Shown: in pieces, positions 1 to 6,819 of the stretch
How the letters are laid out: each line of letters begins with the position of its first letter
Position numbering within the stretch: the stretch's first letter is position 1
Assembly: GCA_051294375.1 (NCBI GenBank)
Contig: JBJCIZ010000811.1
Coordinates: forward strand, 1 to 6,819
Direction of reading: 5' to 3'
Origin: Paraspadella gotoi
Taxonomy: Eukaryota > Animalia > Chaetognatha
Length of the DNA stretch: 6,819 nucleotides
Made by a program: the position numbers and the translations under genes
The notes under the pieces: model-generated
What the model was told of the DNA's origin: nothing
The model's database searches: none
What the model saw: only the letters and a program-made list of their open reading frames with translations

Positions 1-77
1 ATTCAGCTCCAGCTCCAGCTCCGGCCAAATATGCCAGCTCAGGCAGCTCCGACTCCAGCTCCAGCTCCACATCCCTG
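1..77 (-). mobile_element. Terminal fragment (TIR/subterminal GGAGCY array) of a non-autonomous hAT-like DNA transposon, truncated by the window edge
   Basis: The minus strand from 77 reads CAGGGATGTGGAGCTGGAGCTGGAGTCGGAGCTG...GGCCGGAGCTGGAGCTGGAGCTG. A CAGGG end followed by (GGAGCC/GGAGTC)n hexamers resembles widespread invertebrate hAT MITE ends; here most CCGG appear decayed to CTGG. The other end is not in the window, and the family call is from recall. Confidence 0.55.
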
Positions 78-110
78 CTTTTCTGAATTGTTTAAAAACG
101 AGTTCAGGCT

Positions 111-180: not shown

Positions 181-252
181 ACGATCTCTTGCGTGATCGT
201 TCGTTTTTTTAAAAATTCTTATTATTTTTTTCTTTCTCATAAGTTTTATTAT

Positions 253-309
253 CGCCATTTATTTTTTTTCTCAATACAAACCCAAATTACATCCGAGATT
301 TTGTGAATT
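253..309 (+). repeat. Left copy of a ~55-bp imperfect direct repeat (partner at 5424-5476)
   Basis: cgccatttattttttttctcaatacaaacccaaattacatccgagattttgtgaatt aligns with cgccatttttttttaatacaaatcccaaatttattccgagatttccgtggatt. Confidence 0.8.
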
Positions 310-415
310 CATTTTAGAAAAAGGGAAAAATAACTTATAATGCAGAAATGTCACACATGTACATTCAACTTGTTGACAGGTAGGCGATACCTGCTATATA
401 TCCGGAATTGCACGG

Positions 416-420
<5 letters not shown>

Positions 421-448
<28 letters not shown>
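421..448. repeat. T28 homopolymer (A28 on the strand carrying the ORFs)
   Basis: 28 consecutive T residues. Confidence 0.95.
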
Positions 449-451
<3 letters not shown>

Positions 452-1639
452 TTAGATTTAGACGAGAATCTCGCTTAAAAAAAATTCAACATTTTTCTAA
501 TAGAGATTTCCGTTAAAATCTGACTACCCAAATTGCAAACGAGATTGCCAGAAATTCGGGTAAAAAACAGTTGTAAAAACACACGATTCGATAGCGTTAT
601 ATCTTAAGAGCAAGCCAAATTCGTCTTATGGCATTTGATAAAATATTTATATCAAACAAGCCAGGGGAAATGCACTAGTCATCTCGGAGAATTTTCAAAC
701 CTTGTTTTTACTATAAAAATGAAAGGGAAATTTTGCTTTTCAAAAATTGTAAACGGGGCTAGGGTATGTTAACATATAAATATTACTTCAAATTTGAGAT
801 TTAGAAAGCTCTTGTCTCAAGAGCTTGCCAAATTTTTCTTTTCATTATTGACCAACTCTTCATAGTAAACCAACGTTGTAAAGTCCATTGGTCTGGTTTG
901 ACAACATGAAATTTTTATTTAATAAGGAATTAAAAGGAAGGTTAGAGAAAAACTGATTTTTCCTGATATCTCTTGAAGGAACAAAGATACAGGGATGGCA
1001 ATAGTACCAAAATGAAGCCATAATCATTGGGCACATACAAGTTACAATATTAGAATTATTTTTGCTGAAACCTCTTTACAGGGTGAGTGTCAAACTAAGT
1101 CAAAATTATAATGAATTTTAAAACTAATGAAACCCTATAAAAATAAATGAAAATTAAATTCTTTTTAGTGATTCAGAAAGAAAAAAGGCTAAATTGTACT
1201 ATAGTAAAACTTTAAAGTTTTTTGGATAAAGAAAATATAATTTTTTTTCACTTAAATATTTGGTTGACTGATATTACAAGCATGCTTACAAAATTCTACA
1301 AAATATTATTCAACCCATCACAGCCTAACTATTTATTTTCTTTTTCCACCAGCAAAAAGTAAACATTATTTATGTTAGAGAACAGGGATGTTTACTGAAA
1401 TGAGCTGGAAGACGTTCAACTACTTCACTTTAATGTCATTTTTCAATAATAAAATATAGGCGAATCTTTAATTATTTAACTCTCACAGGCTTCACAAGAC
1501 ATTTTACTTTCTTAATATCCCAATAAAATGTAATTCATTATATTTTTTTACCCAGAAATCATAAAATAACAGAAAGTTATAGGATCCCTTCGCTCTTTTA
1601 GAAAAAAAAATTAACTAGCGGAATTATAAGTTTGTAAGA

Positions 1640-2221: not shown

Positions 2222-3907
2222 TTAGCTAGGAGCAGGTGTGGGCCTTTCTAATGAGGCTGACATGGGATAAGCTGCTGCTTGTTGATCTGAAAAGATCACC
2301 TTTTCCCATCCCAGGAAAGCCGCCATTATGCCATAGATTACAAAAAACGGTATGCCGAATACGATTCCTATAGTGACAAGTTGTATGCTTTGCTTTCGTT
2401 TAGGATACATGCTAACGCTTACCATACCTGAAAATATCCCCAAAACCAAAATCATAGTTAACCACCTTGGAAATGAGCACATCTGAAAACAAAGTCCTAA
2501 AGAGCCAGATATTAAAAATAAAACGTTAATTGCCAAGTTAGCGAGCGCTCCAAAAATTGGTCCAAAAACAACTCCATCTCTGTGAGTCGTCGAGGCAATA
2601 AATGGGGCATAAGCCATAGCGATTGTCGTTTTACTAACAAATGTAAAGAAAACTAAACATGCTAAAAAGATCCCAACTACACACTCTATTAACCCAAATT
2701 GGATCATATGAAAAACAAGGTAGAGAAGCAAATGCGCCGCAAAAATGGGCCTATGCCACATTCCAACCATGAACGCGACAACATTCGACATCCATCCCTC
2801 AGTAGCTGTTCCAAGAAGACGTTCAAATATTTCGATACCTTTTGCACCGTGGAAAACCGCTGCAACCTCGCTCTGCTTTCGATTAAGCAGGACTCTAGTT
2901 GTAGGCTCAAACGTTGCAATCAGTACAACAAGAAGCAAACCCCCAAATCGGTTGACGGTACTCCACGCAGCCGTCCACCAATCCAGTGTGTGATATGGAT
3001 AAACCCACGTCCACATCTCCGTCATCCATGAAAGTGAAAATTCATATGTCTTCTCACCAGAGGAAAACCATGATGTAGGTTCGTCCTGTTTAACGTAATA
3101 ATTGTACGCCTCCTCCTTTTTGTTCAAATAATAATCTTCAGGAGGGTCAAAGTAATACCAGTGGCAAGGCCAACCGGTTACTTTCCCCGTAAATCTTATC
3201 ATTCTATCTAGAATATAATTAGCATTAAAACTTAACCCCGCTGTTCCAACAGAAATACTAACCAAAACTGATATTAGTAAACAAATCCTAATAATCTCCG
3301 TAACAGAGTGCTGTGAAAACCTTGGTATAAATAATGTGAATACTCCCACCATAAAACCAAATATGCATATAATTGCTGTACTAAATGTCAAAAATTCAAA
3401 TTTTAAACTTAAGCCAATTCCTACTACTCCAAAAAATATCAAGAGAAATTTAAGCAATGGTCCTATAAAATCCGGAATTCTACAAAATAATCCTATTATT
3501 CTAATAAACCCTGAACCAACACAAACATATCCTGACCATGAAAATATGGACAATAAACCTCCTAAACCTATTCTCGCGTACCAAGGTAGAAAGTAAAGTA
3601 GCCAAAACAGTGTCATGCCTCCAAGGCCATAGACACATATAAAGACTACCCCAGGTTTTGCCCCTGTCTCATCGCATATCCATCTAACAATGTTTGAAAT
3701 TCTAACCAAATCTTCTTCTAATCCCTGTGGAAACCTAGCTAATTGATCCTGAACCATATAGAGTATAGTTTCAACTGTATCGTTACCCAGATCCTCCGTA
3801 TCTAAAATCACACTCTCACCAAAAGCCAAAGCCTCAAGTTCGAATTGCGACAATAGATCAGAGAGATTTTCCCTCTCCGTCTGGGTGCGATCGGAGAGGG
3901 AAATCAG
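2222..3907 (-). CDS. ORF2: multi-pass membrane protein (~10-13 TM), probably made as the -1 frameshift extension of ORF1 (561 aa after the shift); jingmenvirus VP3-like architecture
   Basis: Uninterrupted frame from CTG at 3907 (LISLSDRTQTERENLSDL-LSQFELE...) to TAA at 2224-2222. The ORF track start at 3853 is TTG; the first ATG is at 3757. There are many hydrophobic ~20-aa segments and an aromatic-rich hydrophilic loop (GWPCHWYYFDPPEDYY...). The VP3 likeness is inferred from size, topology and frameshift context, not from alignment. Confidence 0.85.
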   Translation of the reverse strand: MISLSDRTQTERENLSDLLSQFELEALAFGESVILDTEDLGNDTVETILYMVQDQLARFPQGLEEDLVRISNIVRWICDETGAKPGVVFICVYGLGGMTLFWLLYFLPWYARIGLGGLLSIFSWSGYVCVGSGFIRIIGLFCRIPDFIGPLLKFLLIFFGVVGIGLSLKFEFLTFSTAIICIFGFMVGVFTLFIPRFSQHSVTEIIRICLLISVLVSISVGTAGLSFNANYILDRMIRFTGKVTGWPCHWYYFDPPEDYYLNKKEEAYNYYVKQDEPTSWFSSGEKTYEFSLSWMTEMWTWVYPYHTLDWWTAAWSTVNRFGGLLLVVLIATFEPTTRVLLNRKQSEVAAVFHGAKGIEIFERLLGTATEGWMSNVVAFMVGMWHRPIFAAHLLLYLVFHMIQFGLIECVVGIFLACLVFFTFVSKTTIAMAYAPFIASTTHRDGVVFGPIFGALANLAINVLFLISGSLGLCFQMCSFPRWLTMILVLGIFSGMVSVSMYPKRKQSIQLVTIGIVFGIPFFVIYGIMAAFLGWEKVIFSDQQAAAYPMSASLERPTPAPS

Positions 3908-3913
3908 TTTTCC
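3868..3913 (-). promoter_or_regulatory. -1 programmed ribosomal frameshift signal: slippery heptamer G_GAA_AAC (3913-3907) plus stimulatory stem-loop (3903-3868)
   Basis: Minus strand: TCG GAA AAC TGA TTTCCCTCTCCG-ATCGCACCCAGA-CGGAGAGGGAAA. The heptamer is in the correct ORF1 phase, the 0-frame stop follows directly, and the GC core of a 12-bp perfect stem starts 6 nt after the heptamer. The -1 frame is ORF2. Confidence 0.85.
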
Positions 3914-4941
3914 GATAACGCCTCACGCCTAACCTCTATATATGCACTATGTTCTTGTCCTCCATGACGAATAAGTCCTTTCCTCAAAGCCAGGAACCAC
4001 GCATTTTGACCTCGGACCATCTCCTTTGGACAGCATGCGCTTGAAGGCAATAGAACTAGCTCCTTCTCCAAGTAATCCCGATTCCAATGTAGGTTACGAG
4101 AATGTAACTCGGAGAAGCGTCTACACTGTGATGGTGAGTTGACTGATTTCGTTCTATCAACCTTTTGACCATCAACAGAAAAGACACGTTGGAATCCGGA
4201 TATTGGAAAATAGGCGTAATGCCTCAATGTGGTAATGGGTAGCACGTCCACTTCTTTCTCACCAGCCACACAGGCGTATCCATACATATGTCCGCCTCGT
4301 AGTTTCAAGTGAGGAGATTCCAAAGTTTCACGAAAAACATTCAACTTAAAGAACCCCGAATAAATCAAGTAGTGTTTCAACACGCCTATGAACCAACCAT
4401 GGGTCTCCCCAAATTGGTAGCCCATTCCCACAAGGTAAGATTTTACGTCCTCCAACTTAAATGCCTCCCTAATCAACTCCTTGGCTAGATCTGGATTTTT
4501 CTTCGAAACGGCTGTCTGCAACTTTGAAACAATTGATGAAATCTTATTTAAATAATCAGAGTCCTCTCCCTCTGACTTATGCTTATGTTCCTTTTTTAAA
4601 AAAGTTTCAAACTTCTTGGCACCATCGTCATGAACTTCATCACAAAGTTCAATTACTGCTTCCGTTTTGTTTTCCATATCCAGAATTTCTTCAAACTTAT
4701 CCGAACTCTCTTCAATGTCCAGTTTATTTATACCATTAATCAAAATATCTGTTTCCTCATTTTCTTTACAAGTCTCTAATTCTTTACTAAAGGCCTTTGC
4801 ATACGACTGATTCACACCTTGGACAAAACCTAAGTACTCACCATCTGGTTTTTCTGATTTAACCTCGAATTCTTTAACTGCTATAAAAAAGTTCCCATGA
4901 ACTGTCAATATTAAAAGCAAAAACGTCACTTGTTTAATCAT
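3904..4941 (-). CDS. ORF1: 345-aa signal-peptide-bearing secreted/luminal protein; jingmenvirus VP2-like position
   Basis: ATG at 4941 in an AAAATG context (the track start at 4953 is GTG). The N-terminus MIKQVTFLLLILTVHG/NFF fits a signal peptide. It has an acidic/Lys-rich N-terminal half, N-glycosylation sequons NQS and NKT, 6 Cys, no further TM segment and no introns. Confidence 0.85.
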   Translation of the reverse strand: MIKQVTFLLLILTVHGNFFIAVKEFEVKSEKPDGEYLGFVQGVNQSYAKAFSKELETCKENEETDILINGINKLDIEESSDKFEEILDMENKTEAVIELCDEVHDDGAKKFETFLKKEHKHKSEGEDSDYLNKISSIVSKLQTAVSKKNPDLAKELIREAFKLEDVKSYLVGMGYQFGETHGWFIGVLKHYLIYSGFFKLNVFRETLESPHLKLRGGHMYGYACVAGEKEVDVLPITTLRHYAYFPISGFQRVFSVDGQKVDRTKSVNSPSQCRRFSELHSRNLHWNRDYLEKELVLLPSSACCPKEMVRGQNAWFLALRKGLIRHGGQEHSAYIEVRREALSEN

Positions 4942-5009
4942 TTTAAAAAACACCTTTGAAAAACAATGTTGTTATGTATTTATCAAGAAGAATTTGTTCG
5001 TTTACCGGA

Positions 5010-5034
5010 ACTGTCCTATTAACAAACCTTTATA
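5010..5034 (-). promoter_or_regulatory. Possible TATA box (TATAAA, 5034-5029) and CAGT initiator-like motif (5013-5010) upstream of ORF1
   Basis: Minus strand TATAAAGGTTTGTTAATAGGACAGTT lies about 70-90 nt before the ATG. The spacing (~22 nt) is shorter than typical and the region is AT-rich, so support is weak. Confidence 0.25.
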
Positions 5035-5423
5035 ATAGAAAAATGTAACAATCTAAAATTTCATTCAAGATTAAAATTTTTAAGATGAGGAAATAAAATT
5101 TATTTTAATAAGTAAAAAAAATATTTGGAAGTCAAAAAATATCATAGTCGTTAACTGATTATTGTCAACTATATATTTTGTTAATAGAGATTATAATTTT
5201 TTGACCGTTATTATGAAAATAGTTTAGCTTTATAGCGACGAGTTTTCATTTCATACAATCAATATCAATCTCATTCATTTTCAATAATATGCAAAAAATT
5301 AAGGTTTTCAAACCTCATTTTGAACTAGATGAAACAAAAGACTTCAGTCTTATTTCAATTGAAAAAAATAGAAATTTAATTGATGCTTCATCACACTCTA
5401 ATAAAACAATTTTATTTTTAACA

Positions 5424-5476
5424 CGCCATTTTTTTTTAATACAAATCCCAAATTTATTCCGAGATTTCCGTGGATT
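5424..5476 (+). repeat. Right copy of the ~55-bp imperfect direct repeat (partner at 253-309)
   Basis: Shares CGCCATTT, a T-tract, AATACAAA and CCCAAATT-N5-CGAGATTT with 253-309. Confidence 0.8.
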
Positions 5477-5542
5477 TTTATTTTTTCCTTCTAAAAACTT
5501 GTATTATTTTTATTATTCTCTTTATATTTCTCTCTCAATCAA

Positions 5543-5575: not shown

Positions 5576-5593
5576 TAATTTAATCATCACGTC

Positions 5594-5832
5594 ATGAATG
5601 ACTAGCATCGCATCAATGAATGACTATCATCGCATGCAATGAATGACATCATCGCATGCAATGAATGATTATCATCGATCAATGAAGGACTATCATCGCA
5701 TCAATGAATGACTATCATCGCATCCATCATTTGGTTATCATCGCATCAATCCTTCGGTTATCATCGCATCACATATTTGGTTATCATTGCATCAATATTT
5801 GGTTATCATCGCATCAATATTTGGTTATCATC
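5594..5832. repeat. ~22-bp minisatellite, ~11 units, with constant core TATCATCGCATCA
   Basis: About 6 units of ATGAATGAC-TATCATCGCATCA followed by about 5 units of ATATTTGGT-TATCATCGCATCA. Confidence 0.92.
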
Positions 5833-6819
5833 AAAAGCAGGCTCGATCCCTATTGCTTTTAGATTTTTAGTACTTATTCTTAACCTGTCTTTAACCTCCC
5901 ACTGTCTTTTTCTTATTTTTTTGGAAACCTCTATCTCTCTCCCTCTTTCACGTTTCACACCTTATACTTTGTCAAAAATTTTCACAAATGACTTATTAAT
6001 TTTTTGCGCTAATGAAGACTTACGTCTAAAGTTTAAAAATTTTCCTTTTTAAAATAAAATTGTTGCATAAACAAAACAATATCGGTACATCCAATGTTTT
6101 GCGCCACAGTGACTTTCTTTTTATGAAATTGGTACAACCAATATAAAAATTATCCATTCATTCAATAAATAAGCTATCTTGCCCCTGACTTTGGACAGGC
6201 TTTGGTGGTTTAAGGCCTCCATCACTCTTACAAGATAATTACATAGCAGGTCCCTGCAAGCTTTCAATCAAGACTCTCTGACAGTCCTGTTTATTCACTC
6301 CCAGAGTACCTGGCCTCCCTATCAATGAAGTGGAAAATATTTCAAAGAATGTTTCAATTGTATGAAAAGACCACTCCCTTAAGTATTTGTATATTTATAT
6401 GTGTATTTCCATATGATCACATGATTAGAAAATTATTTAAAAAAAAGTTTTATGGTTGATCACTACTGTGCAAAGTTTCATTACAAACAACCAGACATTA
6501 CAAGAAATATAATGAGTTCGGGGTTCCAGCCTACACTATATGACAGTATGTGTCAACTGACTACACAAGTATGAAACACATGCACAAGAAGCATTTAGTA
6601 ATGACTTACCAGTCTGCCAAGTATTACCTAAAATAACTTTCTTAGCCCGTGTATTTATGGCATGCAATATATTTATAGTATTATCTTTATAAAATAATAA
6701 ATTTTCAAAATAAATTTTCTTTAATTTTTATTAATGTTTTAGATTTTTCGTAAAAAATTAGACCAAAAAATATAAAACATTATCATAAATTTTTTTGTAT
6801 TCAGTGTCAAAATTGGAAA

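What the first reader, a model, noticed from the sequence alone, without database searches (positions are those of the whole stretch)
2222..4941. Intact virus-like structural cassette with jingmenvirus segment-4 architecture in an animal-like genome
Seen: a 2.7-kb intronless coding block (signal-peptide soluble protein, -1 frameshift, ~560-aa polytopic membrane protein). It has no RT, integrase, protease or polymerase motifs and sits in repeat-rich AT-rich DNA. Established: Jingmen tick virus segment 4 (under 3 kb) encodes signal-peptide VP2 and a multi-pass VP3 of roughly 540 aa expressed by -1 frameshifting. Inference: this is an endogenised segment of a divergent jingmen/flavi-like segmented RNA virus, or a homologous module carried by a DNA element or domesticated by the host. 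Both ORFs and the recoding signal are intact, which implies recent insertion or purifying selection. I recognise the architecture, not specific residues.
Basis: partly seen in the sequence, partly recalled or inferred. Interest (0 to 1): 0.85.

Follow-up and report, generated by a model that had tools for sequence, protein, structure and literature searches.

The report
Intact jingmenvirus-like segment in animal DNA
An unbroken 2.7-kb pair of overlapping genes, joined by a predicted ribosome-slippage signal and ending in a predicted eleven-pass membrane protein, sits in repeat-rich, likely animal DNA; it is likely a captured genome segment from a distant, unsampled relative of the jingmen viruses, and would add a far-off example of two viral proteins whose jobs are unknown.

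Summary
Two minus-strand ORFs (345 aa with a signal-peptide-like start; 566 codons with 11 hydrophobic segments) overlap by 19 nt. A G_GAA_AAC slippery site precedes the first stop, followed by a 12-bp hairpin (z -3.65). Neither protein has a detectable relative in any library searched.

I fetched Jingmen tick virus (JMTV) segment 4 for direct comparison. Residue-level similarity is not significant (BLASTP, HMMER, hhalign). The membrane layout, however, matches segment by segment (5, long loop, 1, 2, 3; first helix 87 versus 89 residues after the slip). It outscores 50 of 50 control membrane proteins and at least 99 of 100 loop-order permutations in 8 of 8 settings. JMTV VP3 also ranks second in a viral fold search (E 0.18, poor model).

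Best reading (0.66): an endogenised segment-4-type RNA of a divergent jingmen-related flavi-like virus, outside the tick clade. Homology is inferred from topology, not shown. Integration, age, expression and host could not be tested. Segment-4 endogenous copies are already known from a tick, so this is a new variant of a known kind.

The parts
3904..4941 (-). ORF1, 345 aa, VP2-like position: signal-peptide-like N-terminus, acidic helical first half, predicted beta-richer second half
   Evidence: low-confidence model; no significant similarity to JMTV VP2
3907..3913 (-). -1 slippery heptamer G_GAA_AAC, directly before the ORF1 UGA
   Evidence: the same G_GAA_AAC_uga site is predicted in a dipteran dsRNA virus contig (PMC3832450)
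3868..3903 (-). 12-bp frameshift-stimulator-type hairpin (12-nt loop)
   Evidence: z -3.65, 0 of 200 shuffles fold as well
3785..3867 (-). second long predicted stem-loop, followed by a 7-nt stretch (3791..3785) complementary to the first hairpin's loop and closing bases; possible pseudoknot or alternative pairing
   Evidence: prediction only
2222..3922 (-). ORF2, 566 codons in the -1 frame, VP3-like polytopic membrane protein with 11 hydrophobic segments (5, 99-aa aromatic loop, 1, 2, 3); predicted fusion with ORF1 about 906 aa
1760..2221 (-). structured non-coding region after ORF2, candidate viral 3' UTR, with a 22-nt duplication (2086-2107 / 2113-2134); far boundary uncertain (GC falls near 1600)
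   Evidence: (1850-2230: z -5.23, 0 of 100 shuffles)
4942..5040 (-). candidate 5' leader; boundary with host DNA not defined
   Evidence: GC drops to about 21-28% beyond 4950; no target-site duplication identified

Best explanation
The cassette is likely a DNA copy of one genome segment of a divergent jingmen-related (segmented flavi-like) RNA virus, equivalent to segment 4, likely reverse-transcribed by a host retroelement and integrated into a likely invertebrate genome with both reading frames unbroken. As RNA it would be read from the ORF1 AUG into the ER. Most ribosomes would stop at UGA and release a soluble luminal VP2-like protein. A fraction would slip -1 at G_GAA_AAC, stalled by the hairpin, and make a fusion of about 906 aa: the same luminal domain anchored by an 11-pass VP3-like membrane domain, the virion membrane or matrix module. 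Shown: the ORFs, overlap, heptamer, hairpin sequence and hydrophobicity layout. Inferred: frameshifting, topology, homology to VP2/VP3, viral origin, integration route.
For: (1) Same organisation as JMTV segment 4: signal-peptide ORF, slippery site with the stop in the spacer, G/C hairpin, then a 530-570 aa membrane ORF. (2) Both have 11 hydrophobic segments at KD>=1.2 in the order 5-loop-1-2-3; the first starts 87 (window) and 89 (JMTV) residues after the slip; loop lengths Spearman 0.77, p 0.006. (3) Hydropathy-profile alignment to 3 of the 8 tick VP3 sequences scores 59.9, against mean 29.0, sd 6.2, max 45.3 for 50 controls (25 bacterial polytopic proteins, forward and reversed) and 28.5 for reversed ORF2. 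In 8 of 8 scale and gap settings, 0 of 50 controls and 0-1 of 100 loop-order permutations reach it. (4) JMTV VP3 is rank 2 among 60,000 aligned BFVD candidates, over 562 columns. (5) Structured 3' non-coding region, no introns, GC above the flanks. (6) Missing sequence similarity is expected: JMTV/ALSV membrane proteins are reported as not closely related to that of Wuhan cricket virus (PMC7150890), and Pfam, NCBIfam and PHROGs also miss JMTV VP2/VP3 themselves. (7) Precedent: a 2.6-kb segment-4 endogenous element in Ixodes persulcatus (PMC13155725) and a 394-aa VP3 relative from that tick (P0011).
Against: No residue-level homology. ORF2 vs JMTV VP3: best BLASTP E 1.2, hhalign probability 0.1% against an 8-sequence profile, hmmsearch score -1.7; the global score is reached by 31-56 of 150 local shuffles that keep hydropathy; none of 11 sub-profiles stood out (best 59 of 1000 shuffles, wrong register). 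ORF1 vs VP2: local 151 of 1000, global 26 of 500 shuffles, and VP2 is not among the top 50 fold matches for the ORF1 model. The controls are few and bacterial. The heptamer matches 0 of 29 listed segment-4-type sites, ORF1 is 91 aa longer than JMTV VP2, and the JMTV terminal motif is absent. Flank windows fold as strongly as the 3' region (3 of the 7 windows with z<=-3, of 84, lie outside it). No adjacent poly(A) or target-site duplication.
Confidence: 0.66

Rival explanations
1. The proteins are true VP2/VP3 relatives, but the locus is no longer a passive fossil: it is a domesticated host gene, or cargo of a mobile element, expressed as a secreted protein plus a frameshifted membrane form, for example to interfere with related viruses.
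For: Both ORFs and the recoding signal are unbroken over 2.7 kb and no close viral relative exists in the libraries searched. Similar ~85-nt repeats lie on both sides (234-315, 5396-5484), and an A28 run lies 1.77 kb downstream on the sense strand.
Against: Intactness is equally explained by recent insertion. No TATA consensus or polyA hexamer at expected positions, no target-site duplication, no transposase or RT ORF in the window, no look-alike window in this scan.
Confidence: 0.13
2. It is a structural module from another, unsampled virus group that reached the same design independently (secreted protein, -1 frameshift, polytopic membrane protein).
For: No sequence similarity to JMTV proteins. 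G_GAA_AAC is used by unrelated insect dsRNA viruses (PMC3832450) and by none of 29 jingmen segment-4-type sites. The control panel held no viral or eukaryotic membrane proteins.
Against: The order and spacing of 11 segments and the 87/89-residue offset match JMTV VP3. The only BFVD entry ranked above JMTV VP3 is a partial 309-column match to a 323-aa herpesvirus envelope protein, E 0.16.
Confidence: 0.13
3. An ordinary cellular membrane gene (transporter or channel) carrying a frameshift mutation or a sequencing error.
For: Eleven to twelve helices and 500-570 aa are typical of transporters (general knowledge).
Against: No hit at E<=0.001 among 1.84 billion representatives or in the 5.8-billion collection, and no Pfam or NCBIfam family, which is unusual for a cellular transporter. 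The frame change coincides with a slippery heptamer and a z -3.65 hairpin. No introns.
Confidence: 0.04
4. An assembly chimera: sequence of a co-sequenced virus or symbiont joined to host repeats.
For: Junctions are undefined and lie near low-complexity repeats. No read evidence could be obtained.
Against: An RNA virus segment would not normally enter a DNA library (general knowledge). No match in IMG/VR, JGI metagenomes or phage records.
Confidence: 0.04

Closest known systems
Jingmen tick virus segment 4 (VP2 / VP3), locus L001
   Same: About 2.7 kb coding block; N-terminal signal-type ORF; -1 slippery site with the stop codon in the spacer and a G/C hairpin; membrane ORF with 11 hydrophobic segments in the same order and offset.
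   Different: No significant sequence similarity; ORF1 345 vs 254 aa; G_GAA_AAC vs G_GUU_UUU; central loop 99 vs 76 aa; no JMTV terminal motif; embedded in DNA.
Guaico Culex virus segment 3 (VP1-3) and insect-clade segment 4 (VP2-3)
   Same: G_GA-type heptamer (G_GAU_UUU in 8 of 29 listed sites); frameshift shown by mass spectrometry for GCXV (PMC12036656); helical N-terminal and beta-rich C-terminal first protein.
   Different: Could not be compared directly: four probe scans found no such record in IMG/VR.
Ixodes persulcatus segment-4-derived endogenous element (BK083034; PMC13155725) and other tick jingmenvirus EVEs
   Same: A single jingmen segment integrated in an animal genome, near full length (2.6 kb).
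   Different: The tick's VP3-like protein is 64% identical to JMTV VP3 and only 394 aa (P0011). The window's element has no detectable sequence relative, has both ORFs whole, and lies in 23-31% GC DNA.
X2 'jingmenvirus-like' endogenous lineage (PMC9752770)
   Same: Deep jingmen-related lineage known only from animal genomes (copepod, fish), with no living representative.
   Different: Listed there as an NS5 alignment; no link to this locus was tested.

Membership tests
Jingmenvirus-group segment 4 (VP2-VP3) | Bicistronic segment: signal-peptide ORF followed by an overlapping ORF in the -1 frame | tested here: met
   (signal peptide by hydropathy only)
Jingmenvirus-group segment 4 (VP2-VP3) | Slippery heptamer at the end of ORF1 with downstream RNA structure | tested here: met
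   the heptamer sequence differs from all 29 listed sites; slippage itself not measured
Jingmenvirus-group segment 4 (VP2-VP3) | VP3 multi-pass membrane protein (9-10 helices in the literature) with conserved layout | tested here: met
   literature counts
Jingmenvirus-group segment 4 (VP2-VP3) | Sequence homology to VP2 or VP3 | tested here: inconclusive
   Not significant against tick-clade sequences only; profile shallow (Neff 1.8); other clades unavailable; cross-clade homologues are themselves reported as barely similar
Jingmenvirus-group segment 4 (VP2-VP3) | Shared fold with VP2 / VP3 | tested here: inconclusive
   VP3 rank 2, E 0.18, TM 0.13, model pLDDT 43.8; ORF1 model pLDDT 34.2, VP2 not in the top 50
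Tick clade (genus Jingmenvirus) specifically | Conserved terminal motif seen at both ends of JMTV segment 4; VP3 at 61% identity or more | tested here: not met
   Motif at L001 25 and 2688, absent on the window's sense strand between 400 and 5400; identities. Not filed in this clade.
Jingmenvirus group (whole virus) | Companion NSP1 (NS5-like) and NSP2 (NS3-like) segments | not testable with these tools
   No genome; sequencing-run search gave no answer
Endogenous viral element | Joined to host chromosomal DNA, supported by reads or PCR | not testable with these tools
   Flanks are repeat-rich and AT-rich, but no reads; no target-site duplication found
Cellular transporter or channel families | Match to a curated family profile or solved structure | tested here: inconclusive
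   No Pfam, NCBIfam or PDB sequence hit; fold searches rest on a poor model

The most novel reading that the evidence does not exclude
This is the first structural segment recovered from a deep jingmen-related lineage so far known only from polymerase fossils (such as X2) or not known at all, and the host has kept it as a working gene: a domesticated viral membrane protein still made through a programmed -1 frameshift.
Probability: 0.12. Interest if true: 0.85.

Novelty: new variant of a known kind. Interest (0 to 1): 0.55.

Why it matters
VP2 and VP3 are the least understood jingmenvirus proteins: function unknown, no structural homologue found for VP2/VP1 models (PMC12036656), no Pfam family. 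Surveys of endogenous and environmental jingmenviruses rely largely on the polymerase or helicase, so divergent structural segments are missed. If the reading holds, this locus marks an unsampled lineage and host, shows that the frameshift-plus-11-helix design survives after sequence similarity is gone, and gives a distant sequence for finding the conserved core of VP3. It also shows that membrane-topology matching can find such segments. An intact copy makes host co-option directly testable. If it is only a recent passive insertion, it is one more endogenous viral element, though an unusually divergent one.

Tried and rejected
Searches with no hit. PDB sequences (one E 0.18 chance hit). Pfam, NCBIfam, PHROGs. 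ESM Atlas by features. IMG/VR, JGI metagenomes, phage records. Rfam: 3 matches, all below gathering score. Six look-ups in this scan's earlier findings.

VIA-align of the ORF2 model against 48,161 PDB chains gave only generic four-helix bundles (best Z 8.5, rmsd 3.5, 111 aligned, acetylcholine-receptor pore), below the level the tool calls meaningful for helical bundles. This neither supports nor excludes any family.

Attempts to obtain insect-clade segment-4 sequences failed. By-eye motif resemblances (central loop of ORF2 with the tick VP3 loop; a 14-residue stretch of ORF1 with VP2) did not survive shuffling and are not used as evidence. A retroposed copy ending at the A28 run (448..421) was considered; no target-site duplication was found. 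No complex prediction was run.
Full report
Observation. The window holds only two ORFs above 130 aa, both on the minus strand: 4941..3904 (345 aa) and 3922..2222 (566 codons stop to stop), overlapping by 19 nt. At the off-frame stop rate, open frames of these lengths have chances near 1e-11 and 1e-18. ORF1 has one hydrophobic stretch, at its N-terminus. ORF2 has 10-11. G_GAA_AAC sits in frame just before the ORF1 UGA, and a 12-bp hairpin follows that no shuffle matched (0 of 200). ORF2 is open for 55 codons before its first Met (chance 0.018), ending exactly in the overlap, as a frameshift fusion would need. The same G_GAA_AAC_uga arrangement is a predicted -1 site in a dipteran dsRNA virus contig (PMC3832450, passages).

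Search for relatives. Neither protein has a detectable relative in the 5.8-billion collection, and ORF2 has none among 1.84 billion representatives. PDB, Pfam, NCBIfam, PHROGs, the ESM Atlas, IMG/VR, JGI metagenomes and phage records gave nothing. These family libraries also miss JMTV VP2 and VP3, so their silence says nothing against the jingmen reading. Single-sequence AlphaFold models were poor (pLDDT 43.8 and 34.2). With the ORF2 model, JMTV VP3 ranked second in BFVD, over nearly its full length, but at E 0.18 and TM 0.13. The ORF1 model found nothing relevant.

Direct comparison with JMTV. A published primer retrieved JMTV segment 4 (L001), and its VP3 retrieved 7 relatives at 61-98% identity (alignment A1). 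At the residue level nothing was significant: BLASTP E 1.2 and 5.3, hhalign 0.1%, hmmsearch and 11 sub-profiles at background. The global BLOSUM score beat full shuffles (2 of 150 reached it) but not shuffles that keep local hydropathy (31-56 of 150). So the signal lies in the hydrophobicity pattern, not in specific residues.

That pattern is specific. Both proteins have 11 segments at the same threshold, arranged as five, a long aromatic-rich loop, one, two, three. Loop lengths are 90-21-3-9-10-99-45-0-21-17-9 against 90-19-15-5-10-76-33-4-45-2-11 (Spearman 0.77), and the first segment starts 87 and 89 residues after the slip. Against 3 of the 8 VP3 sequences, ORF2 scored 59.9; 25 bacterial polytopic proteins from 47 chance loci, forward and reversed, averaged 29.0 (sd 6.2, max 45.3), and reversed ORF2 scored 28.5. 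Over 8 parameter settings, 0 of 50 controls and at most 1 of 100 permutations of ORF2's own loops and helices reached the observed score. ORF1 has no support of its own.

Differences from known jingmenviruses. The heptamer matches none of the 29 segment-4-type sites in Table S1 of PMC12036656; ORF1 is 91 aa longer than JMTV VP2; the JMTV terminal motif is absent. It is therefore not a member of the tick clade. Cross-clade divergence of this size is documented: VP2/VP3 of insect-clade viruses share about 25% with each other (PMC9229714), JMTV and Wuhan cricket virus membrane proteins are not closely related (PMC7150890), and nematode jingmen structural segments have no detectable similarity to known ones (PMC12770441). 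I could not fetch any of these for comparison.

Surroundings. The coding block is about 40% GC against 23-31% in the flanks. The 380 nt after ORF2 fold strongly (z -5.23) and include a 22-nt duplication, as a viral 3' UTR might. But 3 of the 7 windows with z<=-3 (of 84) lie in the flanks, so this is weak. The flanks carry microsatellites, a minisatellite, a T28 run and a pair of similar 85-nt repeats, which look like host repeats. No poly(A) next to the cassette and no target-site duplication were found. With no genome and no read data, host identity, true integration, copy number, age, selection and expression stay open.

Mechanism. Inferred from the anatomy and from jingmenvirus literature: translation into the ER from the ORF1 AUG; termination gives a soluble luminal protein; -1 slippage gives a fusion of about 906 aa with an 11-pass membrane domain. 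Frameshifting at the equivalent site has been shown by mass spectrometry only for Guaico Culex virus. Integration would have used a host retroelement's reverse transcriptase, as proposed for tick elements (PMC9501327).

What is known. Jingmenvirus endogenous elements are described for segments 1, 2 and 4 in ticks (PMC13155725) and for polymerase and helicase in insects, with a deeper X2 lineage in fish and a copepod (PMC9752770). In searches of the open-licence library I found no report of a segment-4 element outside ticks, nor of one with both ORFs and the frameshift signal intact; subscription papers are not covered. Verdict: new variant of a known kind, interest 0.55.

Papers seen: PMC12036656, main-text parts 1-5 of 7 and its supplement (one page a picture, one figure legend only). 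Passages only: PMC13155725, PMC9752770, PMC7232203, PMC12262179, PMC11971299, PMC9229714, PMC9551281, PMC11074636, PMC7447037, PMC7150890, PMC9501327, PMC3832450. Passages plus supplement text: PMC8709010 (part 2 of 3) and PMC12770441 (search hits only; its alignments of nematode jingmen proteins, Supplementary Figs 11-12, are pictures I could not see and may bear on ORF1). The supplements of PMC13155725 were not opened.

Noticed in passing
window 234-315 and 5396-5484 (+): Two similar ~85-nt AT-rich copies (core 39 nt at 85%), each near a CT microsatellite; a third partial copy at 526-546. Likely one host repeat family on both sides of the cassette.
   Followed up: partly
window 5583-5818: 22-bp minisatellite, 10.6 copies, 85% matches, next to a CT run; this arrangement recalls Helentron-type non-autonomous elements (from memory, untested).
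   Followed up: no
window 378-448: A short hairpin (378-394) followed by a T28 run (421-448; A28 on the cassette's sense strand, 1.77 kb after the ORF2 stop). No target-site duplication found.
   Followed up: partly
window 4060-4220 (-): A long predicted stem-loop inside the 3' part of ORF1 (z -3.6), about 150 nt before the slip site; possible cis-acting RNA element.
   Followed up: partly
window 6184-6226 (-): Weak match to the type-P5 twister ribozyme model (25.8 bits, gathering 37.6, E 0.035).
   Followed up: no
window 401-520 and 801-920 (-): Two strongly folding non-coding stretches in the left flank (z -4.0 and -4.7); an imperfect inverted repeat links 406-429 with 1602-1625.
   Followed up: no
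window 1-80: CCAGCT-type short repeats (family D7), cut by the window edge; resembles the end of a small DNA transposon (impression, untested).
   Followed up: no
P0011: A 394-aa Ixodes persulcatus 'hypothetical protein' on a 31-kb contig is 64% identical to JMTV VP3 and ends early; probably the tick's segment-4 endogenous element annotated as a host gene.
   Followed up: partly
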